DNA from: a virus
Strand: one strand, 5' to 3'
IMG/VR virus record: IMGVR_UViG_3300042892_002840
Span: 33,030-97,029 of that record
DNA length: 64,000 bases
The notes under the pieces were generated by a model that worked only from the letters and a program-made list of their open reading frames with translations, was not told where the DNA came from and did not search any database. Each line of letters begins with the position of its first letter. The first letter of the stretch is position 1. A program made the position numbers and the translations under genes. This document shows positions 29,577 to 42,946 of the stretch, piece by piece.

Positions 29577-29609
29577 TACAACATAACGAACTAACGAAAG
29601 AAGAAAAAC

Positions 29610-29789
29610 ATGTCCTACGCTTACTCATACGAAACTAACTCTATCTCTAAGTGGGATACAATTCAGGAAGATGTTGCAGACGCTTACTCTTACCTAGATG
29701 AAGAAACCGAACAACCACCCGTTGATGATTTTAATGATGAAGATGATGAACAACTAGCCAAACTATTCGCACTAACATGGGAGAACTAA
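29610..29789 (+). CDS. Small, very acidic protein (59 aa)
   Basis: Hand-translated MSYAYSYE...DDFNDEDDEQLAKLFALTWEN; AACGAAAG leader. Confidence 0.65.
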   Translation: MSYAYSYETNSISKWDTIQEDVADAYSYLDEETEQPPVDDFNDEDDEQLAKLFALTWEN

Positions 29790-29791
29790 TC

Positions 29792-29959
29792 ATGACTATC
29801 ACTTACTCAATTTGGCAAGGTGGGCGCTTGCTTTCTATCGACAACATGGCAAAAGATGTAAAGGAAATCGATACACTAATTAAAACGCTAAACGATAGCG
29901 ACCTAGGAAAACGCACTAAGTTTTCCGCTAACATAATGACTCTAAAGGCTGGTGAATAA
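29792..29959 (+). CDS. Hypothetical protein (MTITYSIW...)
   Basis: GGAG RBS, coupled to the upstream gene. Confidence 0.6.
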   Translation: MTITYSIWQGGRLLSIDNMAKDVKEIDTLIKTLNDSDLGKRTKFSANIMTLKAGE

Positions 29960-30155
29960 TGATAACTCTACAATGTCGCACATGCGACGAAGATGTGTCT
30001 AGCATGTGGCTAGATGAAGATGATGTAGTTACATGTGAGGGGTGTTGGTAATGACTAGACTACTAACCACTATCGTGCAATTAGGTATTGCTATTCCCGC
30101 CCTAATCATGTTGCGCCTTGTAATTAAAGACCTTAGAGAGAATGGATTAAATTAA

Positions 30156-30326
30156 ATGATAACTAGAAAACACTACATAGCCACCGCCGACATACTTGCA
30201 TCTTATAAAGATTTAATCGGAGACGAATTTACTTTCCATGATCTAGTTGATGAATTTGCGGGCATGTTCGCAGAAGATAACCCCGCATTCGATGCGGATA
30301 AATTTATAACCGCTTGCAATAAATAA
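30156..30326 (+). CDS. Hypothetical protein, paralog of 31468-31653
   Basis: MITRKHYIATADIL...FAEDNPAFDADKF versus MMTRKDYVSTAEIL...FAKDNPRFDVVRF. Confidence 0.65.
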   Translation: MITRKHYIATADILASYKDLIGDEFTFHDLVDEFAGMFAEDNPAFDADKFITACNK

Positions 30327-30377
30327 AAATAAATAACGGCGTGTCGGCTTGACAAAATCAAGCTGGCCCGCAAAGGC

Positions 30378-30427
30378 ACGGGGTCGGGCGTGTCGTTACG
30401 GCATTGTTATAAAACCCCTGAAAATTT
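30378..30427 (+). repeat. Tripartite dispersed repeat GAGGG-N13-TTACG-N15/16-(C/G)CCTGAAA, copy 1 of 9
   Basis: Other copies start at 31886, 33143, 35005, 36335, 38616, 40967, 41787 and 41844 with the same GAGGG-to-TTACG spacing. Confidence 0.8.
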
Positions 30428-30465
30428 ACGGCGTGTCGATTTGACAGACAAATCGGACATTTGCA

Positions 30466-30481
30466 TGTGACCTTTATCACA
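30466..30481. promoter_or_regulatory. CRP/GlxR-type site
   Basis: tgtga ccttta tcaca (perfect). Confidence 0.75.
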
Positions 30482-30530
30482 TGACTTGAGCGTCTCACAT
30501 CATGGACTTACTGGCTAGTAGGTAGATAAA

Positions 30531-30552
30531 TGTCAGTCCCCTAATGTATAAT
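30531..30552 (+). promoter_or_regulatory. PafBC-type promoter
   Basis: tgtcag tcccctaatg tataat. Confidence 0.8.
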
Positions 30553-30585
30553 GTCTACTATAACAACAACGAAAGAAGGTCACTC

Positions 30586-30702
30586 ATGAACCTAGATGAA
30601 TTCAAGGCGCACATCACCGCCACCCGTCAAGCAAGCAAGGCAGAAGCCTTGTCAGTGCTATCTGCTACAATTACCAAATCAACAACGAAAGAAGGCAACT
30701 AA
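30586..30702 (+). CDS. Small hypothetical protein (38 aa)
   Basis: MNLDEFKAHI...; AACGAAAGAAGG RBS; TAATG coupling. Confidence 0.55.
   Translation: MNLDEFKAHITATRQASKAEALSVLSATITKSTTKEGN
30650..30671 (+). promoter_or_regulatory. PafBC-type promoter (intragenic)
   Basis: tgtcag tgctatctgc tacaat. Confidence 0.8.
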
Positions 30703-30902
30703 TGTCAGCAAATGTCTATACTGTAGAAAGTCTCCTAGTGGGAAAAATGTATTACTCAAATTCTGTAAAGGGAGAAATTATCTCCGCAGAAAAAAATGAT
30801 GATGTCTGGTATTCCGACTCAGACACTTACAAGGTGCAGGTGCGCCCTCTAAATTCTTTTAAGGATACTTACCGCTATGTAGCGGTGAAGGTCGGTGACT
30901 AA
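30702..30902 (+). CDS. Hypothetical early protein
   Basis: AACGAAAGAAGG RBS. Confidence 0.7.
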   Translation: MSANVYTVESLLVGKMYYSNSVKGEIISAEKNDDVWYSDSDTYKVQVRPLNSFKDTYRYVAVKVGD

Positions 30903-31211
30903 TGACTTTAACAATTTACAAAACTGAATTTTATGAAATCATAGACGAGCAACACTTTTGCTGTGATGAAAGTCAGTTTAAATATTATTGCTTAGAACAC
31001 TCAGAATTTATGGGTTGCTATTTTTGCGGATTTGACTACGAAAAGAATTGCGAGGAACAACACTAATGGGATACATCGAAATTTTTCGCCTTGATGATGA
31101 GGGTGCTGGCTGGGTTGATTTATCCGAGGCTACTCCTGATGAATTATTTAACATAGAACTAGGCTTGCTTAATGAGGGAGCCTTGTTCGATACCCCAGAA
31201 GCAATTTAATT

Positions 31212-31233
31212 TGTCAGACCCCTCTGCTACAAT
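31212..31233 (+). promoter_or_regulatory. PafBC-type promoter
   Basis: tgtcag acccctctgc tacaat. Confidence 0.8.
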
Positions 31234-31264
31234 ACTCTAAACAAACAAACGAAAGGGAAAACCT

Positions 31265-31471
31265 ATGTATCAAATATCTGTTTCATACGATAGCAAGCCT
31301 ATCCATTTTAACAAGAACTATGCAGACGCACTAGAGGCGTTCACCGAATTTAATAAGTTCACCGACTGGGGCTGGGCTAATGAATACGCCACAGTTAATT
31401 TGCAAATGCCAACAGGCAAAATGTATACACGCATTTTTTATCGTGAAGGTCGAAAGGTCGTAACAAAATGA
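31265..31471 (+). CDS. Hypothetical early protein
   Basis: AACGAAAGGG RBS. Confidence 0.7.
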   Translation: MYQISVSYDSKPIHFNKNYADALEAFTEFNKFTDWGWANEYATVNLQMPTGKMYTRIFYREGRKVVTK

Positions 31472-31653
31472 TGACTCGTAAAGATTATGTTTCAACCGCA
31501 GAAATTCTAAAGTATGCAAGCGATAAAACGCACCCCGCTTTATTTTCTAAAATCGTAAATGATTTTGCTGAAATGTTTGCGAAAGATAATCCGCGTTTTG
31601 ATGTTGTGCGATTTCACGAAGCAAGTAATTACAAAGTAAAGGTGGGAAAATAA
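31468..31653 (+). CDS. Hypothetical protein, paralog of 30156-30326
   Basis: ATGA overlap; DNPRFD motif. Confidence 0.7.
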   Translation: MMTRKDYVSTAEILKYASDKTHPALFSKIVNDFAEMFAKDNPRFDVVRFHEASNYKVKVGK

Positions 31654-31954
31654 ATGCAACTAGTTGAAATGTTTGTGTGTGATAGTTGTGAGGATTTTGG
31701 TGCGGTCTACATTGAAGGAGATGTGTTAAGTGTTAAGAAATGCAAATGTGTTGAATAGAATTAAGCGTGTTCAGGAGTTGCGGAGATCAAATGCCGCAAC
31801 CCCTGTTCGCAATAAGAAAAAATACACACGCAAGCGCAAGCATAAAAATTCAGAGCTTTGAATATTTATGCAGGCCCCCTCTTTTGTGGGGGCTTGATGT
31901 GAATTACGACACATTTTAAAAACGCCTGAAAATTTGGGCGTGTCGATTAGTAAA

Positions 31955-31976
31955 TGTCAGTCCATTCTGCTATACT
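31955..31976 (+). promoter_or_regulatory. PafBC-type promoter
   Basis: tgtcag tccattctgc tatact. Confidence 0.8.
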
Positions 31977-32005
31977 TGCCATTCAACCAACGAAAGAGGT
32001 CCATC

Positions 32006-32209
32006 ATGGAACTATTTACAGTATCTTGCTTAAACTATGAAATTTGTGGCGACCAAGCAACCTTTGATTCCGTTGAGGAATATGAAATTTATGGCGATGA
32101 CTATATGTGTGCAGAATGCTACGATTCTGAAGAAATGTCATTCTTTGGCTGGGATATGGATAGCGATGCTCTTGCCTCTGCTGGCCATGGAATGGATGAG
32201 GATTACTAA
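32006..32209 (+). CDS. Small acidic Cys-containing protein (MELFTVSC...)
   Basis: AACGAAAGAGG RBS; ends ALASAGHGMDEDY. Confidence 0.7.
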   Translation: MELFTVSCLNYEICGDQATFDSVEEYEIYGDDYMCAECYDSEEMSFFGWDMDSDALASAGHGMDEDY

Positions 32210-32211
32210 TA

Positions 32212-32233
32212 TGTCAGAGGTCCAAGATATAAT
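32212..32233 (+). promoter_or_regulatory. PafBC-type promoter, leaderless to 32241
   Basis: tgtcag aggtccaaga tataat; ATG follows after 7 nt. Confidence 0.8.
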
Positions 32234-32240
32234 TACCCCC

Positions 32241-32960
32241 ATGAAACTAAAACGCTCTAATGATAGAAAGGTGGCTAACCTTGTCACAAAAAATGGAAAG
32301 CAAGCCGCAATTGCCAATACATTCGGATTACCTGCAGGAAAGGCTTATTCATGTCCTGGCGCTACGTCTATCTGCGAAAGTGTTTGCTATGCAGGCAAAT
32401 TGGAAAAGCTCTTCCCTGGAGTAAAAACTAATCTATTGCACAACTGGGAATTGCTACGCAATGCCGATATGGAAACTATGTTCTCTCTTCTTAATGAAAT
32501 GATCATAGAATTCAAAAATGACTGCGATAAGAAAGACGCTCCTAAGTTATTCCGTATCCACTGGGACGGAGATTTCTTTAATGATTTCTATACATATGCC
32601 TGGAAGAATGTAATCAATGAGCACACCGATGTTCAATTCTGGGTTTATACACGTGTAAAGTCTGCAGCGCTTATTCTTAAGGATGTATCTAATCTATCTC
32701 TTTACTATTCTACCGACGACGAGAATAAAGAAATAGCATTCGATTTAAAAACTAATTCCAAGGTCCGCCTTGCTTATCTAGGCAAGACATTCGCCTCAAC
32801 CGAAGACACAATGAAAGAATTAACGGGAAAGCCTGGCGCTAAGTGTCCTGAGAATATGAAATCAATTCCACTTATTAGCAATGCAGGGTCCGCATGTGTA
32901 TCTTGTGGCCTATGTGTCTACGGTAAAGCGGATATTAGATTTTCTGCGAGTAAAAAATGA
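32241..32960 (+). CDS. GP88-family (radical-SAM-like) phage protein
   Basis: FGLPAG..CPGA...C...CYA; FRIHWDGDF; FWVYTR; CVSCGLC. Confidence 0.8.
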   Translation: MKLKRSNDRKVANLVTKNGKQAAIANTFGLPAGKAYSCPGATSICESVCYAGKLEKLFPGVKTNLLHNWELLRNADMETMFSLLNEMIIEFKNDCDKKDAPKLFRIHWDGDFFNDFYTYAWKNVINEHTDVQFWVYTRVKSAALILKDVSNLSLYYSTDDENKEIAFDLKTNSKVRLAYLGKTFASTEDTMKELTGKPGAKCPENMKSIPLISNAGSACVSCGLCVYGKADIRFSASKK

Positions 32961-33148
32961 TAGATGTAATTGGAGCCGTGATTGCAATTATATTAATTTT
33001 ATTTTTGTGCTCACCAATTGTACTGGCCGTGTACATGTGGAATGCAGCTAAGATAGATATCGATAATGACGGAGTAGAAGATCTCCCTAACCGTTGGTGA
33101 CGGCGTGTCGAGTTGACAATTGTCAGCTCGGCCCGCATATGTGAGGGG

Positions 33149-33178
33149 TTATCCACAGGCTTACGACAGTTATCCACA
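33149..33178 (+). promoter_or_regulatory. Two DnaA-box consensus 9-mers
   Basis: TTATCCACA at 33149 and 33170. Confidence 0.55.
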
Positions 33179-33191
33179 AGCCCTGAAAATT

Positions 33192-33207
33192 TGTGATTAA
33201 TCTCACA
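33192..33207. promoter_or_regulatory. CRP/GlxR-type site
   Basis: tgtga ttaatc tcaca (perfect). Confidence 0.75.
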
Positions 33208-33240
33208 AAAGCTGCGACACGCCGATAGCATCCCACAAAA

Positions 33241-33262
33241 TGTCAGTGGCAACCGCTATAAT
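33241..33262 (+). promoter_or_regulatory. PafBC-type promoter
   Basis: tgtcag tggcaaccgc tataat. Confidence 0.8.
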
Positions 33263-33291
33263 ACTCACATACCAACAACGAAAGGCTACAA

Positions 33292-33498
33292 ATGACCAAA
33301 GTAGAACACTCTCTCAAATTCGTTACAGAGTTTGATGAAACACATCCAACCGCTCAACGATTTTTACAATTAGAAGCGGATGCACAAATTGCTATGCTAG
33401 AGTCAATGCTTAAGGACTTGCTAGTAGATGCAATTCAACCAGTAATTGACCACATTAACGAAGGTGGCTCTTACGCAATTCTAAAGGTGGCTAACTAA
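33292..33498 (+). CDS. Hypothetical early protein
   Basis: AACGAAAGG RBS. Confidence 0.7.
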   Translation: MTKVEHSLKFVTEFDETHPTAQRFLQLEADAQIAMLESMLKDLLVDAIQPVIDHINEGGSYAILKVAN

Positions 33499-33767
33499 TG
33501 GGATACACGACAGCACTATCTCTTGCAGATGATTTATCATTAGAGGCAGGACTTGCTTATCACTTACAGGGTAATCATTACCCACCCGTTCCCGTCTCTA
33601 TGGTGCAACCTTGCATAGATGCTATTGATGCGTTTTATGATGAGGAGTATAGCCGAGAGATTAATCTACCTGAAGGTATTTCATGGCGTGGGCAGAACTC
33701 TTGCCCTGCGTCTGCAATAGTAGATGCTCACCACTTAGAGGCTTGGCTACCTCAATACGAGGATTAG
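33498..33767 (+). CDS. Hypothetical phage protein
   Basis: HLQGNHYPPVP...HHLEAW; TAATG coupling. Confidence 0.75.
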   Translation: MGYTTALSLADDLSLEAGLAYHLQGNHYPPVPVSMVQPCIDAIDAFYDEEYSREINLPEGISWRGQNSCPASAIVDAHHLEAWLPQYED

Positions 33768-33783
33768 GGATCAAAACCAGGCG

Positions 33784-33799
33784 TGTGAGTTTAATCACA
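33784..33799. promoter_or_regulatory. CRP/GlxR-type site
   Basis: tgtga gtttaa tcaca (perfect). Confidence 0.75.
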
Positions 33800-33837
33800 C
33801 GCTTGGTATCTCAAATAATAAGATAGGGCTTGATAAA

Positions 33838-33859
33838 TGTCAGACCCAAATGCTACAAT
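33838..33859 (+). promoter_or_regulatory. PafBC-type promoter
   Basis: tgtcag acccaaatgc tacaat. Confidence 0.8.
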
Positions 33860-33886
33860 ACTACCCTACACAGAAAAGAGGCAAAA

Positions 33887-34069
33887 ATGACAATAGATAA
33901 TCATCTCTATAAGGTTGGCGATTTATTCACCACCCTAAAGTCAAAAAAGACAGGTGTGATTAAAGAAATCCACCCACAAGCATCTGGCTCGGTGCGTGTG
34001 CTACTGGAAATGCCAACAAAGGAAACTCGTTGGACTTCAGTATCGGCTAAGACCCTTCTAGGCGCATAA
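33887..34069 (+). CDS. Small SH3-like hypothetical protein (MTIDNHLY...)
   Basis: YKVGD...TGVIKEI; GAGG RBS. Confidence 0.65.
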   Translation: MTIDNHLYKVGDLFTTLKSKKTGVIKEIHPQASGSVRVLLEMPTKETRWTSVSAKTLLGA

Positions 34070-34147
34070 CCTAGAACGAAACAGGGACAGTTTAAGAGAG
34101 TGTTCTCGTCCAATGTCGTAAGTAAGAACTCTCTCCCTTCGGGGAAA

Positions 34148-34169
34148 TGTCAGACCCCCCTGCTATACT
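34148..34169 (+). promoter_or_regulatory. PafBC-type promoter
   Basis: tgtcag acccccctgc tatact. Confidence 0.8.
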
Positions 34170-34204
34170 ATCCATAACAACAACCAACCAACGAAAGGTA
34201 ACAA

Positions 34205-34621
34205 ATGTCCCGTCAAATCACAGTAAAGGTAGCAACAAGCAAAGTAATCAAGGCACTAGAAGGCACTCTTGCTAAACTAGAGAAGGATTACGCTTCACAG
34301 GAAGCAAACGAAGCAAAGTATCAGAAGGCGCAAGAAGCGTGGAAAAAGGAAATTGGAGATTGGGCTATCAAGAACTTCTCTAAGGCAACTAATCTCCGCA
34401 CATCTTATCGCTCTTGGAACAACACTCTCAATGTTGATTTTGACATTGTAACAAAAGAGTCAGCGTTCCCCGTAGAACCTGAAAAGGACTTTGAGGTAAT
34501 TCATCAGCACAGTTATCGTGAGATGAAAGAGGACATTACAAATGCTCTCACTATCTTAAAGATGACAGATGAGGAAACAGTAAATGCTTCTACAATGAAG
34601 CAGATTGCTAAGTATCTCTAA
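34205..34621 (+). CDS. Hypothetical early protein
   Basis: AACGAAAGG RBS; helical composition. Confidence 0.75.
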   Translation: MSRQITVKVATSKVIKALEGTLAKLEKDYASQEANEAKYQKAQEAWKKEIGDWAIKNFSKATNLRTSYRSWNNTLNVDFDIVTKESAFPVEPEKDFEVIHQHSYREMKEDITNALTILKMTDEETVNASTMKQIAKYL

Positions 34622-34658
34622 ATAATTTGGGGGGCAGAACTAAAGTCCTGAACCCAAA

Positions 34659-34685
34659 CGACCTGAGTAAGTCGCCAAACTGCTC
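34659..34685 (+). ncRNA. Candidate H-type pseudoknot RNA element, copy 1 of 3
   Basis: cgac-CTGAGTAA-gtcg-ccaaac-TGCTC. Confidence 0.5.
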
Positions 34686-34720
34686 TCCCTTCGGGGACAA
34701 CTACTAACAAAGGTAATACA

Positions 34721-34981
34721 ATGGCAAATCGTTTCAGAGTAGAAATCTACGATGCAAACAAACTTAATGACATCACGATTTATTCGGATCAAGGTGTCGA
34801 TAAAGAATATCTAACTGAATTAGTATTCAGTAATATCAGAAACTTTAGCGGAAAAATAAATGCTTATGTTTTTGATAATGTAAAGAAAAAGAAAACAACT
34901 GCAATGTTTCTTGATGAACGCACAGTTGAATTTAATAAAAATATAATTCGGAATGCAACTAAGGTAGAGTTGGGGAGTTAA
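34721..34981 (+). CDS. Hypothetical protein
   Basis: AAAGG RBS. Confidence 0.7.
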   Translation: MANRFRVEIYDANKLNDITIYSDQGVDKEYLTELVFSNIRNFSGKINAYVFDNVKKKKTTAMFLDERTVEFNKNIIRNATKVELGS

Positions 34982-35053
34982 TCCCCAGCTCGGCCCCTGC
35001 TTTTGAGGGGTTATCCACAGCGTTACGATCACCTGTGGAAAACCCTGAAATTT

Positions 35054-35069
35054 TGTGAGATTACTCACA
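35054..35069. promoter_or_regulatory. CRP/GlxR-type site
   Basis: tgtga gattac tcaca (perfect). Confidence 0.75.
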
Positions 35070-35107
35070 TGGATCAATTCGGACATATTTCTAATAAGAT
35101 AGACAAA

Positions 35108-35129
35108 TGTCAGTGGGGTCTGTTATACT
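35108..35129 (+). promoter_or_regulatory. PafBC-type promoter
   Basis: tgtcag tggggtctgt tatact. Confidence 0.8.
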
Positions 35130-35162
35130 TACCAAATCAAACAAACGAAAGGTAAAAAATAT

Positions 35163-36167
35163 ATGGCTCACAATCTCGAAATGGAAAATGGCGAAGTTGC
35201 TTTCGCTCTCCGTGGCGCACCTGCTTGGCACAACCTTGCAAATCGTATCTTCACAAAAGATGAGGAAGTTACAACTGCCTCAATGCTTAGCGAAGCAAAG
35301 TTAGCAAATTGGAATGTTCGTTTATCTCCAATCACTGACCATATCTCAGAATCTTGGAATGATGTATCTAACGCATCTCTTGTGATTCGTGACAACCCAT
35401 TCAATGGTGGAACTGATGTTCTCGCAACTGTTGGCAAGCGTTACAAGCCTGTTCAGAATGAAGAACTATTTGCATTTGCTGATGCAATTCACGATGCCAA
35501 TGCTGATTGCCGTTGGGAATCTGCGGGTTCTCTTAAGAAGGGCAAAGTTGTATTCGGCACTGTAGATATTCCTCGCACAATGGTTCTTGACCCACAAGGC
35601 GCCAATGATGAGACAAAGTTATATCTAATCGTATGGACTTCACACGATGGTTCTGTTGCTGTTCAGGCAGCCGTTACACCTGTTCGTGTTGTATGCCAAA
35701 ACACTCTTAACCTTGCAATGAAGAATGCTAAGCAATCTTTCAAGATTCGCCACACGCAATCTGTTGAAGGTCGTATTCAAGTTGCTCGTGAAACTCTTGG
35801 GCTTGCTCTTGGCTATTTCGATGAATTCGAAACCGAAGCACAAGCACTATTTTCTCAAGCAATTACCGATGCTGAATTTTCTAAGTTGATTCAGACAATT
35901 TATCCAAAGCCAGAAAAAGATGCTAAGGGTGCAATTAAAAAGTGGGAGAACAAAGTTGTTCTGCTTGATGATTTGTATCATAACTCGCCGACTAACGCTA
36001 ATATCAAGGGAACAAAGTGGGGCGCATTCAATGCGCTTACTGAGCGCCTTGATTACTATCGTTCAGGTCGTGGCAATGGTGAAACTCTTATGGCGGGTGC
36101 ATCAGGATTTGACCCTGTTCTAACTGCTGAGAAAAACAAAATCAAGAAATTGGTTTCTGCTTTCTAA
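35163..36167 (+). CDS. DUF932 (TIGR03299 phage/plasmid-like) protein
   Basis: MAHNLE...PAWH.L; Y.PVQN; ESAGSL..G; SHDGS; TPVRVVCQNTL; WGAFNA.TE. Confidence 0.88.
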   Translation: MAHNLEMENGEVAFALRGAPAWHNLANRIFTKDEEVTTASMLSEAKLANWNVRLSPITDHISESWNDVSNASLVIRDNPFNGGTDVLATVGKRYKPVQNEELFAFADAIHDANADCRWESAGSLKKGKVVFGTVDIPRTMVLDPQGANDETKLYLIVWTSHDGSVAVQAAVTPVRVVCQNTLNLAMKNAKQSFKIRHTQSVEGRIQVARETLGLALGYFDEFETEAQALFSQAITDAEFSKLIQTIYPKPEKDAKGAIKKWENKVVLLDDLYHNSPTNANIKGTKWGAFNALTERLDYYRSGRGNGETLMAGASGFDPVLTAEKNKIKKLVSAF

Positions 36168-36174
36168 ATAAAAA

Positions 36175-36202
36175 AAATCCTGAGCAAGATTTAAAACTGC
36201 TC
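36175..36202 (+). ncRNA. Candidate H-type pseudoknot RNA element, copy 2
   Basis: aaatc-CTGAGCAA-gattt-aaaac-TGCTC. Confidence 0.5.
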
Positions 36203-36209
36203 ACCATTA

Positions 36210-36283
36210 GGTCCATTAGCTCAGTTGGTTAGAGCGCTACCCTGTCACGGTAGAGGTCGACGGTTCAAGTCCGTTATGGATCG
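36210..36283 (+). tRNA. tRNA-Asp(GUC)
   Basis: Cloverleaf; anticodon arm CTACC-CT GTC AC-GGTAG. Confidence 0.92.
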
Positions 36284-36392
36284 CAAATAATATTTATGCA
36301 TTTCATTGTATAAATATGCACTGCCCCCAATACTGAGGGTGTGATTCTTATCATACGAGGATCATAAAAAATCCCTGAAAATATCTTCCATT

Positions 36393-36414
36393 TGTCAGTG
36401 GTAAGCGCTATAAT
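36393..36414 (+). promoter_or_regulatory. PafBC-type promoter
   Basis: tgtcag tggtaagcgc tataat; 1-mismatch CRP site at 36340-36355. Confidence 0.8.
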
Positions 36415-36439
36415 ACTCCTATACAACGAAAGGAATACA

Positions 36440-36874
36440 ATGGACCGCAGAGAATCAAGAAGCAACGGATATATTGGAACAATTGTAGATGGCGAAAAGC
36501 TTGCTGAAATTGCAAATGGAATTTACAACCTGCAGTACAGTAGCGACTTCTCTAAATGTACAGTAGATTCATTACTGTTTATTGAACTAGAAGAGAAGAA
36601 TGTTTACGGGGACCCTAAATATGCCTTGGTATGCTCAGAGGGTGTTGGATGGGAGCAGGACACATATGGTTGCCTAGAAGTTCCGACCAACATTGGTCAA
36701 ATGGGACTATGGAATGGAAGAGTATTTATTTCAGTAGACACTGTTAAAGCTTGTTTGACTGATCGTACAGAAGACATTGCAGATTACATTAGAATCTTTG
36801 GGGACCGCCTTGACCGCAACTGCTACTTGTGGCAGTCAAAAATGTCAGTGGTACCTGCTACAATACTCGCATGA
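36440..36874 (+). CDS. Hypothetical early protein (MDRRES...)
   Basis: AACGAAAGGA RBS. Confidence 0.7.
   Translation: MDRRESRSNGYIGTIVDGEKLAEIANGIYNLQYSSDFSKCTVDSLLFIELEEKNVYGDPKYALVCSEGVGWEQDTYGCLEVPTNIGQMGLWNGRVFISVDTVKACLTDRTEDIADYIRIFGDRLDRNCYLWQSKMSVVPATILA
36843..36864 (+). promoter_or_regulatory. PafBC-type promoter (intragenic; leaderless to 36871)
   Basis: tgtcag tggtacctgc tacaat. Confidence 0.8.
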
Positions 36875-37536
36875 CCAACGCACTAGTATCAAGTAAGTAT
36901 ACATTTGCCTGCGACCCAGATGAATGTGATGTCTTAATTGAATTAACTTCATCAGACGGGTTTGGATTCCCGTCGGGTGTGGTACAAATCACATGTCCAT
37001 GTGGCCGTAAGCCAATCTTATTGTCAGTGGAGCATGCTACAATTGCACCTTCAACAACAACGAAAGAGGATAAAATGGAAACAACAACAATCGGTTCAGA
37101 TGCATTCCACTCACCTGCAGTAGAATACAATCCTGATTTACTAGTTACATATAAAGTAATCAAGGGTTACTCTGACCCTGAATTTACAACATCAAAGGTA
37201 ACAAGTCTTGAGTGGGACCTACATAATGGTCGTCAATCTCAAAAGCGTGTAGGTCTTCTTGAATCAAACATCAATACAGTTAAAAATATAATCTCTGAGG
37301 CATATGCTGATTCAGATGACCAAGATACACTTCGTTCAATTGCTGAAGCGCTTAGCATTGAACTAACACGAACTGTAGAATTTACTGCAACTATCGAGGT
37401 TAGCGGAACAATTGACCTTAACCTTCTTGAGGACTATGACTTTGAAACAGAAATCACAGACAATCTTTATGTTGATTCACAGAGTGGCAACATTGAGATT
37501 GGCGATACTGAAATCTGTTATGTGAGGGAAGCATAA
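36871..37536 (+). CDS. Hypothetical protein with an N-terminal Cys motif and an in-frame internal start at 37075
   Basis: CDPDEC...CPCG; second promoter and RBS precede METTTI. Confidence 0.65.
   Translation: MTNALVSSKYTFACDPDECDVLIELTSSDGFGFPSGVVQITCPCGRKPILLSVEHATIAPSTTTKEDKMETTTIGSDAFHSPAVEYNPDLLVTYKVIKGYSDPEFTTSKVTSLEWDLHNGRQSQKRVGLLESNINTVKNIISEAYADSDDQDTLRSIAEALSIELTRTVEFTATIEVSGTIDLNLLEDYDFETEITDNLYVDSQSGNIEIGDTEICYVREA
37022..37043 (+). promoter_or_regulatory. PafBC-type promoter (intragenic)
   Basis: tgtcag tggagcatgc tacaat. Confidence 0.8.
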
Positions 37537-37748
37537 TGTATTTTGAATTAACTGCTCCATCTCAAGTGGCCTTTGCGAGGGCCACTTGGGAAGCGGAGAT
37601 GATTGGGCTGGACCCAATGACAATTGCACCGTTGACTTTCAACATCGGAACTGGTAGTATTGAGAAAGTATCACGGATTCGTGATAAGTATAATCTAGTA
37701 GAGAGTTATACATCAGACTACGAGCCAACAGGTTACACAGGGAGATAA
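37536..37748 (+). CDS. Hypothetical protein
   Basis: TAATG coupling. Confidence 0.65.
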   Translation: MYFELTAPSQVAFARATWEAEMIGLDPMTIAPLTFNIGTGSIEKVSRIRDKYNLVESYTSDYEPTGYTGR

Positions 37749-38074
37749 TATGTCAGACTACAAAGATGGTTTTCAAGATGGATATAAGTTTGCTCGTGAG
37801 GAACTTATGGAAAGACTTGCTGAGATTGATATCGCTGATATCGATTCTTGGATTCTTGACCGTCTTTCAGAGATGATCGAAGGTAACCAACTTTGATGGC
37901 TGAATGGCTTAAGTGTGACCAATGTGCGGCGCAAGCAATGTGGGAAGCAAAGAAAGACACAATGTCTCTTTATTTTTGCGGACACCATAAAAATGAACAG
38001 GGCGAGCCACTTGTGGACTGGGCCCAAGAAATGATACAATTACTCAACTACGAAAAAGAAATGGCGGAATAAAA

Positions 38075-38443
38075 ATGGGCGACAGAGCAAACTTTGGTTT
38101 CAGAGATTCCAAGGAAGACATCATCTTTCTATACGGGCACTGGGCTGGACATCGAATGCTAGAAAATTTAGCGGATGCTGTACAGGCTGCAGAGCCACGC
38201 TGGAATGATGAATCATATGCAACACGTATAGCAATTAGCAGACTCATTGGCGATGAATGGACCAGCGAAACTGGATGGGGCATTAGCGTAAATGCATTAG
38301 CAGATAATGAGCACAAGGTACCTATCATCGATTGGAAGAATAAAACATTCACTCTAATGGAAGAGGACCTTGTCACTGAAGTATTTACCATGGACCTTCA
38401 AAAGTTCGTGGCCAAGTATTCTAGTCAACTCGTTATGGTATAA
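38075..38443 (+). CDS. Hypothetical phage protein
   Basis: MGDRANF...LYGHWAG...RWND.SYATRI. Confidence 0.75.
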   Translation: MGDRANFGFRDSKEDIIFLYGHWAGHRMLENLADAVQAAEPRWNDESYATRIAISRLIGDEWTSETGWGISVNALADNEHKVPIIDWKNKTFTLMEEDLVTEVFTMDLQKFVAKYSSQLVMV

Positions 38444-38565
38444 TTATACTAGGACTTTGGTCCTGGTTTTAATAGGAAATGAAATGGTGCATCTATTAGT
38501 CTGCGGGCCAGGTGCTAAGTAAAGCGGTTTATTTCTTTCGTTGGAAATCAGCAGCCATATTCATA

Positions 38566-38600
38566 ACCCCTCCAGCTTGATCTGGAGGGGTTTCTATTTT
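38566..38600 (+). terminator. Intrinsic terminator
   Basis: cccctccag-cttgat-ctggagggg followed by tttctatttt. Confidence 0.75.
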
Positions 38601-38725
38601 GCCCACAAAAGATATGAGGGTAGCATATGTCTTTTACGAGTGTCAAGTAAATTCCCTGAAAATTTCACAATATGAGACGAGATTTGATCAATGTGGTGTG
38701 ATTCACACACCAAAAGGATTCCATT

Positions 38726-38747
38726 TGTCAGTGCCCTAGTATATAAT
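38726..38747 (+). promoter_or_regulatory. PafBC-type promoter
   Basis: tgtcag tgccctagta tataat; 1-mismatch CRP site at 38692-38707. Confidence 0.8.
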
Positions 38748-38774
38748 TATCACATATCAACGAAAGGATATAAT

Positions 38775-39551
38775 ATGCCAAACTGGGTGTATAACACATT
38801 AACTATCCAAGGACCTAAGTCTGAGGTAGATATGATTAAAGATAGATTGAATAAGCCTTTTACATTAGCACAAGAGACTTATGGTATGGGTGATATTTCA
38901 TCTATGGGTTTCCCCACCAAATTTGAGCAGGTAAGTTATTCTAATCCTGTCTTTGCTTTCTTCAACATTCATTCATATAAGGATGACGGCATTACTGATG
39001 AGGAATATGCTTGCCAGCCTTCTCGTGGAGATATAGATATGAAGAATGACCCTGATTGGTTCCGCAAATCTGTTGAGTTTGCTAAGACTCAAAAGGATTG
39101 GTATTCATGGAACAACTCTAATTGGGGAACTAAATGGGATGTTGCTGTTCGTGATGGTGATGAATATCCAAATACAGAACTACTTGAATATAAGTCTGAA
39201 GGTGATGACAATTGGGTTGTCTACAAATATGAAACTGCTTGGTCACCTGCTGTAACTATTCTAACTAAACTAAGTAATCTTGTTCCGAACTGCCTGCTCA
39301 CATTAGAGTATGAAGAAGAGACAGGTTGGGGTGGGGAATATGAGATTGTCCGTGGTGATGTAAAAGAATTGGCTGAATGGGAGAATCGTTGCTATGCATG
39401 CCAGTCTTTTGACACAATGAGTTATTGTGAAGATGACTGCGGTGAATTCTGCTCAGAATGTGGTCAAGGCTCTTGGCAAGATGAAGAGGCAATGAAGAAA
39501 TGTCAGACCCATAGTGTATTATTGGAATCTACAGAAAAGGCGGAAGCATAA
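38775..39551 (+). CDS. DUF1281/Api92-like (YubB ferredoxin-like) protein
   Basis: MPNWVYN.L.I.G; WY.WN..NWGTKWD; ETAWSP; C-terminal Cys cluster. Confidence 0.8.
   Translation: MPNWVYNTLTIQGPKSEVDMIKDRLNKPFTLAQETYGMGDISSMGFPTKFEQVSYSNPVFAFFNIHSYKDDGITDEEYACQPSRGDIDMKNDPDWFRKSVEFAKTQKDWYSWNNSNWGTKWDVAVRDGDEYPNTELLEYKSEGDDNWVVYKYETAWSPAVTILTKLSNLVPNCLLTLEYEEETGWGGEYEIVRGDVKELAEWENRCYACQSFDTMSYCEDDCGEFCSECGQGSWQDEEAMKKCQTHSVLLESTEKAEA
39501..39522 (+). promoter_or_regulatory. PafBC-type promoter (intragenic)
   Basis: tgtcag acccatagtg tattat. Confidence 0.7.
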
Positions 39552-39766
39552 TGGCTGAACTATTTATAGATACATTAGCAGAGCACATTACAGGTGCTAT
39601 GCAACAAGAAATTGGTGAAGCGCTATTTGACCAATGGTCTTATAATAATTTAGAGGAAGGAGAGGCATATGCTGAATTTAGATTTATGGAATATGCTTCT
39701 CGTGAATTAAAGCAACAATATAACGAATACTATGGCTATATTGAGGGAGATGAGTTTCTACTATGA
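39551..39766 (+). CDS. Acidic hypothetical protein
   Basis: TAATG coupling. Confidence 0.65.
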   Translation: MAELFIDTLAEHITGAMQQEIGEALFDQWSYNNLEEGEAYAEFRFMEYASRELKQQYNEYYGYIEGDEFLL

Positions 39767-40031
39767 TGTTAGGTTATACACAAAGAGATTTAGCAGATAT
39801 GACCTATGGGGTCTATCAAGCTGACCTGCTGGTCAATGCTGACGAGAATCCTGCAATTCATAATTATCTAGTAATGGCTCATGATTTCTTACAGGGCCTA
39901 TGGGCAGAAGGGTATTTTGATCATGCATAAACATCATTGGGAATGCACAGATACACCAGGAGTATTTATGTGCCATGCAGAGGGAACTACTGGATACTTC
40001 AATAGTTTAACTAAAGAGATTGTAGTAGATA

Positions 40032-40223
40032 ATGACTAAATCATCTTATTTCCTAGAGTATATGAAGTTACATGAGATTAGTTTAATGCAAGACCTAGAG
40101 AAGATTGATTATGTAAATGAACATCACTTCTACAGGTGCAAGGAAGCAGAAATTTACAATACCAGGCATTTGTTGTCAGTGGCTACTGATATAATGAATT
40201 CCTCTAACGAAAGGTATGAATAA
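40032..40223 (+). CDS. Hypothetical protein
   Basis: TAATG coupling. Confidence 0.6.
   Translation: MTKSSYFLEYMKLHEISLMQDLEKIDYVNEHHFYRCKEAEIYNTRHLLSVATDIMNSSNERYE
40174..40195 (+). promoter_or_regulatory. PafBC-type promoter (intragenic)
   Basis: tgtcag tggctactga tataat. Confidence 0.8.
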
Positions 40224-40495
40224 TGAATAATGAAGATATTGGGCTCCCGCCCCATTTGCAACGTATGGTCAATGCAGGAGTATCAGGCCTTGACATTATG
40301 CACGGAGAACTAAAAAATCTAATGCTCATTGCTGAGCAGGAACTAGCAGAGGCTCAGGCCATTGAAGATGAATCAGAAGAGGCAATGGACTCTATGGACC
40401 GCACAAGATGTGAAGGTGCCCTTGATACATTAGTATCACTATATAATCTAACATATCAACTATCATTTGCGATTGGAGAAAAGAATGACAACTGA
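40223..40495 (+). CDS. Hypothetical protein
   Basis: AACGAAAGG RBS. Confidence 0.7.
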   Translation: MNNEDIGLPPHLQRMVNAGVSGLDIMHGELKNLMLIAEQELAEAQAIEDESEEAMDSMDRTRCEGALDTLVSLYNLTYQLSFAIGEKNDN

Positions 40496-40835
40496 AATGG
40501 ACCTACAAGAAAAGACCCGCATGCAGGACACTTATGTCAAGATTGAATCTATTGTTGATAGCATTGGAGAACTAGGGGTCTTCCCTCCCTTGGTTTGGGT
40601 TTGGTCTTGGGATGTAGCAAAGACCATGTGGACCTCTTACATGGAGGGCGAGGACGAAGATTACTGTACAGCAATGGACCTAGACGAGGTCTGGGAGCGC
40701 TTCTGGGTAGACGCAGGCAAGAACGGGTTCACCCTTGAATACGGGGTAGAAGACCTAGATGACGCAATTCGTGACTGGCTAATGGAGATTGGCGCTGTCG
40801 AACTAGCAGAGGAGGAAGAAGATGAAGATGAGTGA
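40485..40835 (+). CDS. Very acidic hypothetical protein
   Basis: GGAG RBS; D/E-rich C-terminus. Confidence 0.7.
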   Translation: MTTEMDLQEKTRMQDTYVKIESIVDSIGELGVFPPLVWVWSWDVAKTMWTSYMEGEDEDYCTAMDLDEVWERFWVDAGKNGFTLEYGVEDLDDAIRDWLMEIGAVELAEEEEDEDE

Positions 40836-41062
40836 TGAGTACATCAATGATCAATTAAACAAAGCACAAAAACTTTTGTGGGGTGGGTCCGAAACTGAAA
40901 ACATCGAAGCCCATAACATCATTGCTAAATTAATTAAAGATCGTATTGAACAAACCAATTTGATCTGAGGGCAAAAAAAATTCGTTACGAGGGTATTTAC
41001 AAAATCGTGGATATCCTATATAATAAATATAACAACTATATCTCTTGAAAGGGGATTATCAA

Positions 41063-41212
41063 ATGGCAACAAAGCGTGAATATCTAAAGCAGCAAGGCAT
41101 TACCGTAGGTGTACGTGGTCGCTTCTCAGGAGCAGCCAAGGTAGCTCTAGCTGAGGCGGAAGCCAAGGGCATTAAGTTTACAGCAGAAGCACCAACAAGC
41201 AAGGCAAAGTAA
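41063..41212 (+). CDS. Stand-alone Lsr2-like DNA-binding domain (49 aa)
   Basis: Hand-translated MATKREYLKQQGITVGVRGRFSGAAKVALAEAEAKG...; matches the Lsr2 C-terminal REWA..NG..V..RGR pattern; GAAAGGGG RBS. Confidence 0.75.
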   Translation: MATKREYLKQQGITVGVRGRFSGAAKVALAEAEAKGIKFTAEAPTSKAK

Positions 41213-41221
41213 TCCAGGGAC

Positions 41222-41264
41222 GGGGTCAGGGCTTCGTTGGTCCTTGACCCCCTCTCTTATTTTT
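41222..41264 (+). terminator. Intrinsic terminator after the Lsr2-like gene
   Basis: ggggtcagggc...gtccttgacccc followed by a T-rich tail. Confidence 0.6.
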
Positions 41265-41297
41265 GGTATAATCGACAGTTAGGCGGAAGGCGGACAT

Positions 41298-41672
41298 ATG
41301 AGTAAATCACCTGAAATCAAAGTAGCAGAATCATTAACTAATCTAATGGATGACCATTGGTTTAATCCAACGGTCTTTGGTAGATATTTGGCGGAACAGC
41401 CATTGCATACCATTGACCGAGTTATGGAAATGATTGTGTCAGTTATATCAGAGCAAGCAAAAATGTATAATGTATATCTAAATAGAAATGAAACAACCGA
41501 AGGTCTATCTCTTGCTAATGAACTTAATGAATGTATTAAGGCTTACCAAGAAGATAACAACTTAGTTAATCTTAAGTTGCCTTCCCGTTCTTTTCAAGTC
41601 CCAAAGCGGGAGGAATCAAAAACTCAATACAAATTTGGATGGCGGAGTGAAGAACTAGATCCATTCAATTAA
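41298..41672 (+). CDS. Hypothetical protein
   Basis: TGGTATAAT promoter upstream. Confidence 0.7.
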   Translation: MSKSPEIKVAESLTNLMDDHWFNPTVFGRYLAEQPLHTIDRVMEMIVSVISEQAKMYNVYLNRNETTEGLSLANELNECIKAYQEDNNLVNLKLPSRSFQVPKREESKTQYKFGWRSEELDPFN

Positions 41673-42213
41673 CTATAGGCATACATACAATGAGAGAAGA
41701 ATGCCTGGTTAGATAGATAAACATATCTAGCCCAAATTATCCACAGGGTTATCCACATCCTGTGGATTTTTTGTATGTGTGGGCATGAGGGCAAAATTTT
41801 CTATTTACGACCAGCTATTTCAAACGCCTGAAATTTCTAGAACATGGGCCAAATTTTCTATTTACGAAGGCCTTGACAAAATCCCTGAAATTTGCTACAG
41901 AATATGTCTAATTAGATATATAATCATTATAGAATGTCGACAAATCTGTAGAGAATATAGCAAAATAGATCAAAATTCCTTGCATAATCTATTGACAAAT
42001 ATGGATCAATATGCTGCAAATTTAGGCTATTGACATTACGTTAAGGATATGGCATGCTCAATTACACATGTATATTAATCTAGATATATCTATAGTATAT
42101 TGAACCTAATCTAGAGTATAAATTCTCCACAATGCTCCACTTTACTCCACATATAAAGCCTTCCAGAGGCTCTTAGAGAGGAGATAAATGGGAGGGGGAT
42201 ATAGGAGTTAGAT

Positions 42214-42489
42214 CTACTTGCCAAGGATTTGCTTGACAAGCTCTATTGGCTTGATTGGATCTTCTTCTGGCAATGAGCCATACTTGTGTAATAGTTTAAG
42301 TAATATACCTGCTATGAATATATCATCGCTAAATGCCATCCAGGGAAATAGAATGTCAAATAGGTCTATTGGTATTACTATGTATATTAGACACATCATT
42401 GCCACCGCCCTTACCCATAGAGGTGATCTATGGAATTGGGCCCTATATGGCTTGATTGATTCTTGAAATCTAAGTTTAATTCTAGTCAA
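42214..42489 (-). CDS. DUF1232 (YkvA-like) membrane protein
   Basis: YIVIPIDL...SDD motif. Confidence 0.7.
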   Translation of the reverse strand: MTRIKLRFQESIKPYRAQFHRSPLWVRAVAMMCLIYIVIPIDLFDILFPWMAFSDDIFIAGILLKLLHKYGSLPEEDPIKPIELVKQILGK

Positions 42490-42696
42490 CTAACAATTAT
42501 GTGTATAGCCACAATCTGGACATTTCTCTCCAGGATTTGAGTTACAGTCATCGCACCAATCTGGTGCATCTTTCCAAGATGGATCAAGATTTTCTTTATC
42601 CAGACAATCTTGGCATACAGTTTCTTTAAATGTCTTTACAGATAGATTCTCATCTTCTAATTCTATATATGCTTCTAGGTTATCTAATATACCCAT
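42490..42696 (-). CDS. Small Cys-rich hypothetical protein
   Basis: Three CxxC motifs. Confidence 0.6.
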   Translation of the reverse strand: MGILDNLEAYIELEDENLSVKTFKETVCQDCLDKENLDPSWKDAPDWCDDCNSNPGEKCPDCGYTHNC

Positions 42697-42932
42697 TAGT
42701 CTACCTTTGGTCTAAATACGCCATTCCAAGAAGTCTCTGGCTCTTCTGGTAGTCCCGTCGCTTTATTGATAGGTACGCAATTAGGGACTCTTTTGCCACC
42801 CTTATCTTTCATTCCAACCTGCTTATATCCACGCCAGCAAGCTTTCTCAAAGTTGTTCCATTTGTCGACATGCTCATCATCTGAGACATATGACTTGGTG
42901 ATCTCTTCATCTGTAAATTCTATGTTATCCAT
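42696..42932 (-). CDS. Hypothetical phage protein
   Basis: ACWRGYKQVGMKDKGGKRVPNCVP motif; leaderless-type start after GGTATAAT. Confidence 0.65.
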   Translation of the reverse strand: MDNIEFTDEEITKSYVSDDEHVDKWNNFEKACWRGYKQVGMKDKGGKRVPNCVPINKATGLPEEPETSWNGVFRPKVD

Positions 42933-42946
42933 ACGACTATTATACC

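What the first reader, a model, noticed from the sequence alone, without database searches (positions are those of the whole stretch)
30378..41890. Unexplained 9-copy fixed-spacing element GAGGG-N13-TTACG-N15/16-(C/G)CCTGAAA dividing the early region into cassettes
Seen: copies start at 30378, 31886, 33143, 35005, 36335, 38616, 40967 (third box degenerate), 41787 and 41844. (T/A)TACG is always exactly 18 nt after the start although spacer sequences differ. The first six copies have GCCC shortly upstream. All are intergenic, and most are 1.3-2.4 kb apart. AGGG can pair with CCCT, and several spacers are self-complementary around TTACG (35011-35042, 36340-36366). Inference, three options: a minus-strand promoter for an ECF-like phage sigma (TTTCAGGG-N15-CGTAA) making antisense RNA; a hairpin recombination site for shuffling early-gene cassettes; or a DNA-injection/ssDNA signal.
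Basis: partly seen in the sequence, partly recalled or inferred. Interest (0 to 1): 0.72.

Follow-up and report, generated by a model that had tools for sequence, protein, structure and literature searches.

The report
Three-box signal between phage early operons
An uncultured lake phage of actinobacteria, and hundreds of related contigs, separate their early gene units with a conserved, one-directional three-box DNA signal that matches no described promoter or operator and has no counterpart in likely host genomes; it is most likely a phage-private promoter-type site whose reader is unknown.

Summary
The 97-kb phage record has exactly nine copies of TGnGGG-N13-TTACG-N16/17-CCTGRAA. All lie on the gene-sense strand inside the 12-kb early block. 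In 80 related loci there are 638 sense copies, 1 antisense and 0 in a reversed control.

The boxes are nearly invariant. The two "slots" between them vary, and often hold host-type DnaA boxes or CRP-type boxes at fixed registers.

There is no shared hairpin or RNA fold. Gene-content breakpoints are only mildly enriched at the element, less than at the neighbouring PafBC-type promoters.

Each copy follows a stable hairpin that ends the previous unit. Six copies precede a PafBC-type promoter and one a SigA-type promoter. The first unit has none, and two tandem copies close the block.

Related lineages changed the same box position in up to nine copies in parallel, so one trans-acting reader is implied. 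Sampled actinobacterial genomes show no use of the motif.

Best reading (about 0.4): a sense promoter-type signal for RNA polymerase with an unknown phage-specific factor. Main rival (about 0.3): a polar boundary or operator site. The antisense ECF promoter, recombination hairpin and injection-signal readings are disfavoured.

This scan had already noted the same kind of element in a related genome.

The parts
30378..30427 (+). Copy A. Slot 1 holds a CGGGCGTGTCG word.
   Evidence: orthologues
31886..31935 (+). Copy B. A CRP-like TGTGA-N6-ACACA spans TTACG.
33143..33192 (+). Copy C. Both slots hold a direct DnaA box TTATCCACA (33149, 33170). A CRP-type box follows at 33192-33207.
35005..35054 (+). 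Copy D. It has a DnaA box at 35011 and an inverted DnaA-like box in slot 2. A CRP-type box follows at 35054-35069.
36335..36384 (+). Copy E (box 2 reads ATACG). It lies after tRNA-Asp and a hairpin, 12 nt before the PafBC-type box at 36393.
38616..38665 (+). Copy F. It lies directly after the intrinsic terminator at 38565-38600.
40967..41016 (+). Copy G, with a degenerate box 3. It starts at the stop codon of the upstream ORF and overlaps a SigA-type promoter, TTTACA-17-TATAAT, at 40996-41024.
41787..41837 (+). Copy H, the first of the tandem pair after the terminator at 41739-41775 at the end of the + block.
41844..41894 (+). Copy I, the second of the tandem pair. Slot 2 holds TTGACA. No ORF and no conserved RNA fold lie downstream.
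30531..38747 (+). PafBC-type promoters (TGTCAG-N10-TAnnnT) that follow copies A-F, at 30531, 31955, 33241, 35108, 36393 and 38726. They start 19-114 nt after the start of box 3.

Best explanation
The element is a cis-acting transcription signal private to this phage lineage. It is read on double-stranded DNA by one trans-acting factor. It most likely acts as a sense-strand promoter of a second class, placed in tandem upstream of the PafBC-type promoter that heads most early units.

Shown:
- The element is strictly polar and occurs only in the early block.
- Three short boxes are invariant while the slots vary.
- The TTACG-to-CCTGRAA distance switches between 16 and 17 bp within orthologous copies. 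This gives a centre-to-centre distance of about 23 bp, as between the -35 and -10 elements of sigma-70-family promoters.
- DnaA and CRP-type boxes sit at fixed registers inside the element or immediately after it.
- Related lineages changed the same box position in many copies in parallel.

Inferred:
- RNA polymerase carrying an unrecognised phage-specified factor binds TTACG as a -35-like element and CCTGRAAWTT as a -10-like element, with the upstream TGnGGG as an extra contact.
- Host DnaA and a CRP/GlxR-type protein act as operators, because the CRP-type box would cover the predicted start site.
- The first unit, which lacks the element, would be immediate-early.
- The tandem pair at the end of the block would transcribe into the conserved AT-rich, iteron-bearing non-coding region, as tandem phage promoters do at the T7 primary origin (recalled from memory).
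For: Polarity and restriction to the early block: 9 sense and 0 antisense copies in this genome. All matches lie on one strand and in one cluster in five related genomes. In 80 loci there are 638 sense copies, 1 antisense and 0 in the reversed control.

Box conservation with free slots.

Spacing: 16 bp in 278 copies and 17 bp in 332, and it switches within orthologous copies.

Host-factor boxes: DnaA boxes occur at fixed slot registers in 104 of 378 unique cores. A CRP-type box starts 8-12 nt after the start of box 3 in several different copy types.

Position: 55 nt upstream folds at -15.1 kcal/mol against -8.4 when shuffled, and copies lie upstream of + strand units.

No common fold, so a DNA-protein signal is likely.

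Concerted change: some lineages have CCTGAAA in all copies, others have CCTGGAA in 7-9 of 9, and a sublineage has TTAAG in the left 4-5 copies. None of 2000 permutations reached the observed variance.

No host counterpart: 34 matches against 45 in the control across 151 genomes of the likely host order. The PafBC-type positive control gave roughly 240 against 45 in 61 genomes. No genome in a phylum-wide sample of 251 had more than 5 loose matches.
Against: - The -10-like box has no TAnnnT, so it is not a standard actinobacterial SigA promoter.
- No sigma factor or single-subunit RNA polymerase was found in five genomes.
- The element is never the only promoter of a protein gene. Copies A-F are always followed by a PafBC-type promoter and copy G by a SigA-type promoter.
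- The first unit lacks it, and two copies sit at the end of the block with no gene and no conserved RNA fold downstream. A boundary or insulator function explains this more directly.
- There are no transcription data.
Confidence: 0.4

Rival explanations
1. Polar boundary or operator site. A phage DNA-binding protein occupies the three boxes. It either stops read-through from the previous unit (a roadblock or insulator, loosely like stoperators) or regulates the promoter that follows, for example by shutting off early units.
For: The element is absent before the first unit, present between co-directional units and doubled at the end of the block in all six genomes mapped. It always lies just after a stable hairpin and is always followed by another promoter. 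In copy G, the three-box element overlaps or abuts a SigA-type promoter in two different arrangements, as an operator would. Concerted box changes fit a phage-encoded binder.
Against: Box 2 and box 3 are unlike each other, and the 16/17-bp gap switches freely. That is typical of sigma recognition and unusual for a rigid DNA-binding protein. Host DnaA and CRP boxes placed inside the slots at fixed registers have no obvious role in a roadblock. The distance to the next promoter varies from 19 to 114 nt with no helical phasing. No DNA-binding domain was recognised in 30 early-block proteins, and no early-block protein tracks the box variants.
Confidence: 0.3
2. Minus-strand promoter (TTYCAGG-N16/17-CGTAA) for an ECF-like sigma factor, making short antisense RNAs.
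For: The 16/17-bp spacing and a CGTA-type -10 element resemble ECF promoters such as Bacillus SigW (recalled from memory). The boxes are conserved.
Against: The -35 element has no AAC core. No sigma gene is found in the phages, and no host regulon carries the motif. Transcripts would run at once into the hairpin that ends the upstream unit. The conserved GGG would fall at about +6 to +8. A CRP-type box about 14 bp upstream of the -35 element fits no usual activation position. Nine antisense promoters placed only at unit heads have no evident logic.
Confidence: 0.07
3. DNA-level polar signal unrelated to transcription. Candidates are a replication-fork barrier or origin-associated sites next to the AT-rich iteron region at 41.9-42.2 kb, or a stepwise DNA-entry signal.
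For: The element is strictly polar. The tandem pair abuts a conserved non-coding region with CTCCAC repeats at 10-bp intervals, AATCTA repeats and DnaA boxes. Some slots hold DnaA boxes.
Against: The copies sit exactly at transcription-unit borders over 12 kb and are not clustered at one site. CRP-type boxes and promoters are tied to them. There is no ssDNA hairpin in most copies. Nothing links them to the genome ends, which are unknown: the direct terminal repeat flagged for related records appears to be an assembly overlap of about 127 bp.
Confidence: 0.08
4. Hairpin recombination site that shuffles early-gene cassettes.
For: One relative (L027) lacks exactly the segment between copies B and C. 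Breakpoint density is 1.8-fold higher at elements than elsewhere.
Against: There is no common hairpin. Breakpoints are more frequent at PafBC-type promoter and leader zones, 49 per kb against 27.6 per kb. That is what ordinary homologous exchange at any short conserved repeat would give. No recombinase is associated with the element.
Confidence: 0.02

Closest known systems
Tandem early and middle promoters of T4-type phages (middle promoters read through MotA/AsiA sigma appropriation); recalled from memory
   Same: Two promoter classes lie in tandem before the same early units. One class replaces the -35 element with an activator box, as the PafBC-type TGTCAG box does here at about -30. The other class lies further upstream. 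The signals are phage-specific and occur only in the early region.
   Different: No MotA or AsiA homologue was identified. The sequence is unrelated. Here the upstream class lacks a SigA-type -10 element, whereas T4 early promoters are strong sigma-70 promoters.
ECF (group 4) sigma promoters, e.g. E. coli RpoE (GGAACTT-N16-TCTGA/TCAAA) and Mycobacterium SigD (GTAACG-N16/17-CGAT); consensus sequences recalled from memory
   Same: Two unlike boxes lie 16-17 bp apart. Box 3, CCTGA, resembles the older RpoE -10 consensus TCTGA. Box 2, TTACG, is one base away from the SigD -35 core.
   Different: There is no AAC in the -35-like box. No ECF sigma gene was found in the phages. No matching regulon was found in sampled actinobacteria. 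The element has an extra invariant GGG box 13 bp upstream.
Stoperators of Cluster A mycobacteriophages (L5 gp71 type)
   Same: Both are asymmetric sites in one orientation relative to transcription, repeated between genes, and lineage-specific in spelling.
   Different: Stoperators are single 13-14-bp sites, number in the dozens across the whole genome, and belong to temperate phages with an immunity repressor. This element is a 45-bp three-box signal with 9-10 copies in the early block only, and no repressor was identified.
PafBC-dependent (RecA-NDp) promoters of actinobacteria (PMC8635444)
   Same: They share the same intergenic regions. Each of copies A-F is followed by one. Both are tied to CRP-type boxes.
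   Different: The three-box element holds neither TGTCRGTG nor TAnnnT. PafBC-type boxes are common in the likely host genomes, whereas the three-box element is not.
Lambda nutR boxB (GCCCTGAAAAAGGGC); recalled from memory
   Same: Box 3, CCCTGAAAA, is identical to the 5' arm plus loop of boxB.
   Different: No 3' arm follows, so no boxB hairpin can form. No boxA is present. The match is judged to be chance.

Membership tests
Actinobacterial SigA (housekeeping) promoters | -10 hexamer TAnnnT, often with an upstream TGn | tested here: not met
   No TAnnnT occurs in any register within or after box 3. The conserved string is CCTGRAAWTT. By contrast, the neighbouring PafBC-type and SigA-type promoters have perfect TAnnnT.
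Actinobacterial SigA (housekeeping) promoters | -35 element like TTGACA, 16-19 bp upstream of the -10 element | tested here: inconclusive
   TTACGA matches TTGACA at 3 of 6 positions. The spacer to GRAAWT would be 18-19 bp.
ECF sigma promoters | Two-part motif with 16-17 bp spacing | tested here: met
   The spacing is 16 bp in 278 copies and 17 bp in 332.
ECF sigma promoters | AAC core in the -35 element | tested here: not met
   Neither TTACG (+ strand) nor TTYCAGG (- strand) holds AAC.
ECF sigma promoters | A cognate sigma gene in the phage or host, usually with its own promoter carrying the motif | tested here: not met
   Sigma70_r2, r4, r4_2 and TIGR02937 gave no match over cut-off in G000-G004. 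The motif is not enriched in 151 genomes of the likely host order.
PafBC-dependent (RecA-NDp) promoters | TGTCRGTG-N8-TAnnnT | tested here: not met
   This motif is absent from the element and lies 19-114 nt downstream of it.
Cluster A stoperators | Single asymmetric 13-14-bp site, many copies genome-wide, one orientation relative to transcription | tested here: not met
   The orientation criterion is met. However, the signal has three parts spread over 45 bp and is confined to the early block.
T7-type single-subunit RNA polymerase promoters | A phage-encoded T7-like RNA polymerase and a contiguous promoter of about 23 bp | tested here: inconclusive
   PF00940 was not found in five genomes, but that search also rang in none of its 14 control genomes. 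The element is not a contiguous conserved block.
Intrinsic terminators | GC-rich hairpin followed by a U tract | tested here: not met
   The element itself has no common hairpin. Hairpins lie upstream of it, and true terminators lie at 38565-38600 and 41739-41775.
Rfam RNA families | Match to any covariance model | tested here: not met
   Only tRNA-Asp matched in 28000-44000 at E<=0.1.
Polar replication-fork barriers (Ter/Tus type) | Orientation-dependent fork arrest by a bound protein | not testable with these tools
   Only the polarity is shown.

The most novel reading that the evidence does not exclude
The three boxes form a rigid docking frame for a phage-specified factor that retargets host RNA polymerase. 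Candidates are the phage WhiB-like protein, which in this protein family binds SigA region 4, or the 48-residue region-4-like HTH protein seen in complete relatives. The two slots would be plug-in positions where host DnaA or CRP/GlxR compete with that factor. Each early operon would then read host replication and cAMP status through a promoter class private to the phage, layered on promoters borrowed from the host DNA-damage activator PafBC. A still more unusual variant is that the same sites act as polar barriers keeping transcription and replication apart next to an origin at 42 kb.
Probability: 0.15. Interest if true: 0.8.

Novelty: new variant of a known kind. Interest (0 to 1): 0.55.

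Why it matters
These phages are abundant in lakes: the neighbouring DUF932 protein has more than 5000 database relatives. Their likely hosts, streamlined low-GC actinobacteria, are among the commonest freshwater bacteria and are hard to culture.

The element is a clean, testable handle on how such a phage times its early genes. It has a 45-bp signal with three invariant boxes, natural specificity variants (CCTGAAA or CCTGGAA; TTACG or TTAAG) and built-in sites for host DnaA and CRP-type regulators.

Finding its reader would reveal one of two things: a new way of redirecting actinobacterial RNA polymerase, or a new kind of polar boundary element. It would also supply orthogonal control parts for actinobacteria.

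If it turns out to be an ordinary phage promoter, the result is a useful annotation but not a surprise.

Tried and rejected
- **Phage collections.** A nucleotide search of the phage collection gave no match. By portal protein, the nearest cultured relatives are Streptomyces phages of Stanwilliamsviridae at about 55% identity. Their gene order differs, so I did not pursue them.
- **Rfam.** Only a tRNA matched.
- **Common RNA or DNA fold.** RNAalifold on 42 copies gave only a 3-bp GGG:CCC pairing at -0.7 kcal/mol on the + strand and nothing on the - strand.
- **Exact-pattern scans of public collections.** Most hits were chance matches in unrelated taxa. The one actinobacterial genome hit (L136) was also a chance match, and I used it only as a handle to the likely host order.
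- **Sigma factor or RNA polymerase genes.** None was found. The only hit is a sub-threshold region-4-like HTH of 48 residues.
- **Domain and structure searches of early-block proteins.** They returned DUF932, GP88, DUF1281_C and DUF7455, and no DNA-binding domain. Sequence searches against solved structures gave nothing significant; the lethal-factor rows at E 0.2-0.6 are noise.
- **Association scan.** I looked for an early-block protein that tracks the CCTGGAA variant. The signal was diffuse and phylogenetic, with no clear candidate.
- **Structured RNA downstream of the tandem pair.** The structure conservation index was at most 0.55 and similar on both strands.
- **Lambda boxB resemblance.** Rejected because the 3' arm is absent.
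- **Anti-leader small RNA.** I checked whether the element drives it. It does not: that RNA has its own SigA-like promoter upstream of copy F.


Full report
**What the window is.** The window is bases 33030-97029 of a 97,029-bp IMG/VR virus record, estimated 86% complete. The phage is a large siphovirus-type phage: it has portal, protease, capsid and a 2717-residue tape-measure ORF, plus ten tRNA genes. Its nearest cultured relatives by portal protein are Streptomyces phages of Stanwilliamsviridae, at about 55% identity. It encodes a WhiB-like protein, which points to an actinobacterial host. Earlier notes of this scan reached the same host call. Bases 29.3-41.7 kb form a block of about 40 small + strand genes between minus-strand blocks.

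**Observation.**
- With up to three mismatches allowed, the whole record holds these nine copies only, all on the + strand. Other hits are at the level of the reversed control.
- The refined consensus, from 452 unique copies in relatives, is ccc-N8-TGnGGG-N13-TTACGr-N(about 10)-AAAnC-CCTGRAA-wTT.
- The gap from GGG to TTACG is always 13 nt. The gap from TTACG to CCTGRAA is 16 nt (278 copies) or 17 nt (332 copies), and it switches between orthologous copies.

**Conservation and polarity.**
- An exact-pattern scan of IMG/VR picked up related contigs.
- In five related records, four of them 94-100% complete, every match lies on one strand and in one cluster of about 12 kb.
- In 80 loci fetched through the neighbouring DUF932 gene (1.14 Mb), there are 638 copies on the gene-sense strand, one on the other strand and none in a reversed control.
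- The early block is collinear with relatives at about 80% identity, yet the boxes are nearly invariant while the slots diverge.

**No shared structure.**
- RNAalifold on 42 copies finds only a 3-bp GGG:CCC pairing.
- Excess folding energy is confined to copies whose slots hold inverted DnaA boxes or CRP-like palindromes. The 204 unique cores without them fold no better than slot-shuffled controls, a difference of -0.15 kcal/mol.
- Rfam finds nothing but tRNA-Asp.
- The hairpin-based readings (recombination site, ssDNA signal, RNA element) therefore lose their basis.

**Not a special recombination site.** Across the 80 loci, homology breakpoints occur at 27.6 per kb in element zones, 49 per kb in PafBC-type promoter and leader zones, and 15.5 per kb elsewhere. 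One relative lacks exactly the segment between copies B and C. The overall pattern is what ordinary exchange at any short conserved intergenic repeat would give.

**Context.** I first saw a box at about -30 followed by TATAAT downstream of each copy. A note from this scan identified it as the actinobacterial PafBC (RecA-NDp) promoter type (literature: PMC8635444, PMC11804915).
- The block has 17 such motifs, all on the + strand.
- In all six genomes mapped, the order is: one or two PafBC-type promoters with no element; then repeated units of element, PafBC-type promoter and genes; then a copy G tied to a SigA-type promoter; then two tandem copies after a terminator at the end of the block.
- Of 595 copies, 443 are followed by an exact PafBC-type motif before the next ribosome-binding leader. 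The rest are mostly copy types G, H and I.
- The distance from box 3 to the TGTCAG box runs from 19 to 114 nt in this window, with no helical phasing.
- The 55 nt upstream of the element are strongly structured: -15.1 kcal/mol against -8.4 when shuffled. Promoters without an element give -11.4 against -9.3. Two of the upstream hairpins are full intrinsic terminators.
- The element therefore marks the border between transcription units.

**Slots.** Of 378 unique cores, 104 hold DnaA boxes (TTATCCACA, at most one mismatch) at fixed registers: offset 4 in slot 1, and offsets 25 or 27 in slot 2. Three of the five perfect DnaA boxes in the whole record sit in slots. A CRP-type box (TGTGA-N6-TCACA) starts 8-12 nt after the start of box 3 in about 40% of unique copies, across several copy types. 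In types B and E it instead spans TTACG.

**One trans-acting reader.** Box 3 position 5 is A in every copy of some genomes (this window, L298, L303) and G in 7-9 of 9 copies in others (L305, L312, L323, L330). A sublineage also has TTAAG in its left four or five copies. The between-genome variance of the G fraction exceeds all 2000 within-type permutations. Shared descent inflates this test. Even so, at least one lineage must have changed the same position in up to nine copies that have unrelated slots. That points to selection by a common reader rather than to gene conversion.

**Not a host regulon.**
- TTACG-N16/17-CCTGAAA gives 34 matches against 45 in the control in 151 genomes (1.1-2.2 Mb) of the order of an uncultured freshwater actinobacterium. 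The tool does not name the order; it is probably Nanopelagicales.
- The PafBC-type pattern, used as a positive control, gives roughly 240 matches against 45 in 61 of those genomes.
- A looser three-box pattern in 251 genomes across the phylum gives at most 5 hits per genome. All are GC-rich and look like coding sequence. That tally includes five unpublished genomes (G157, G204, G276, G330, G382), each with a single match at chance level.

**Who reads it?** No sigma-70 region 2, 4 or 4_2 match and no ECF model match passes its threshold in five genomes. T7-type polymerase was also not found, but that search rang in none of its control genomes.
- The only sigma-like hit is a 48-residue region-4-like HTH ORF beside a RuvC-like gene in the four near-complete relatives. 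It lies beyond the end of this record.
- Thirty early-block proteins show no DNA-binding domain.
- No early-block protein cleanly tracks the box variants.

**Weighing the readings.**
- For a sense promoter: the two-part geometry with one base of play (about 23 bp centre to centre), host operator boxes inside and just after the core, and its place after terminators and before genes. The tandem pair in front of an AT-rich, iteron-bearing conserved region also fits, recalling the tandem promoters at the T7 primary origin (recalled from memory).
- Against a sense promoter: there is no TAnnnT, no identified factor, and the element is never the sole promoter of a gene. The distribution (none before the first unit, two at the end of the block, no RNA fold downstream) is explained as well or better by a polar boundary or operator site.
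- I put the sense promoter-type reading at about 0.4 and the boundary or operator reading at about 0.3.
- The more general statement has about 0.85 support: the element is a phage-private, protein-read transcription signal, not a hairpin and not a recombination site.

**Known or new.** I found no paper describing this element. This scan had already recorded the same kind of three-box element in a related genome and reached a similar verdict. The finding is therefore not new to the scan. The new points here are the 80-locus statistics, the concerted box variants, the host-genome controls, the breakpoint test and the unit-order argument.

Noticed in passing
window 38422-38600 (+): A candidate small RNA of about 150 nt. 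It has its own SigA-like promoter (38422-38450) and an intrinsic terminator (38565-38600). It holds CTTTCGTTG at 38535, the complement of the CAACGAAAGG leader shared by at least 13 early genes. Earlier scan notes describe the same RNA in relatives.
   Followed up: partly
window 41895-42200: A conserved AT-rich non-coding region between the convergent blocks. It has CTCCAC at 42125, 42135 and 42145 (10-bp period), several AATCTA repeats, a GTCGAC-centred word, and a conserved TTGACA-N17-CATGCT promoter-like site (42030-42058) that itself holds TTACG. DnaA boxes lie just upstream at 41737 and 41749. It may be a replication origin or a packaging region.
   Followed up: partly
window 29303-40195 (+): The PafBC-type boxes come in two spellings. 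TGTCAGTG/TGTCAGTC always follows the three-box element. TGTCAGACCC(C) occurs only at internal promoters without the element, often with a TACAAT -10 element.
   Followed up: no
window 30337, 30429, 33101 (+) and 33215 (-): Another repeated word, (A)CGGCGTGTCG, flanks copies A-C, often followed by TTGACA. A near copy fills slot 1 of copy A in all relatives. No reader is known.
   Followed up: no
window 32212-32960 (+): The GP88-family gene (Pfam PF17338, shared with mycobacteriophages and Streptomyces phages) appears to start at ATG 32241, only about 7 nt after the TATAAT of a PafBC-type promoter. It is probably a leaderless mRNA.
   Followed up: no
window 53284-53700 (-): A WhiB-like protein gene (PF02467, E 1.4e-10) with a basic C-terminal tail. 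Proteins of this family bind SigA region 4, so it is a candidate partner for non-standard phage promoters.
   Followed up: partly
L334:547-693 (-), L336:533-679 (+); relatives G001-G004, beyond the end of this record: A 48-residue ORF with a sub-threshold sigma-70 region-4-like HTH (E about 1e-4 to 2e-3). It is conserved beside a 160-residue RuvC-like gene.
   Followed up: partly
window 36210-36284 (+): A tRNA-Asp gene sits inside the early block, between the DUF932 gene and copy E. The other nine tRNA genes are on the minus strand elsewhere.
   Followed up: no
L305, L312, L309 (related loci): In one sublineage the left four or five element copies read TTAAG or TTATG while the right four keep TTACG. 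This hints that the left copies (with the GCCC word upstream) and the right copies (slot 1 of the GGGC(C)AAATTT type) are two subclasses.
   Followed up: partly
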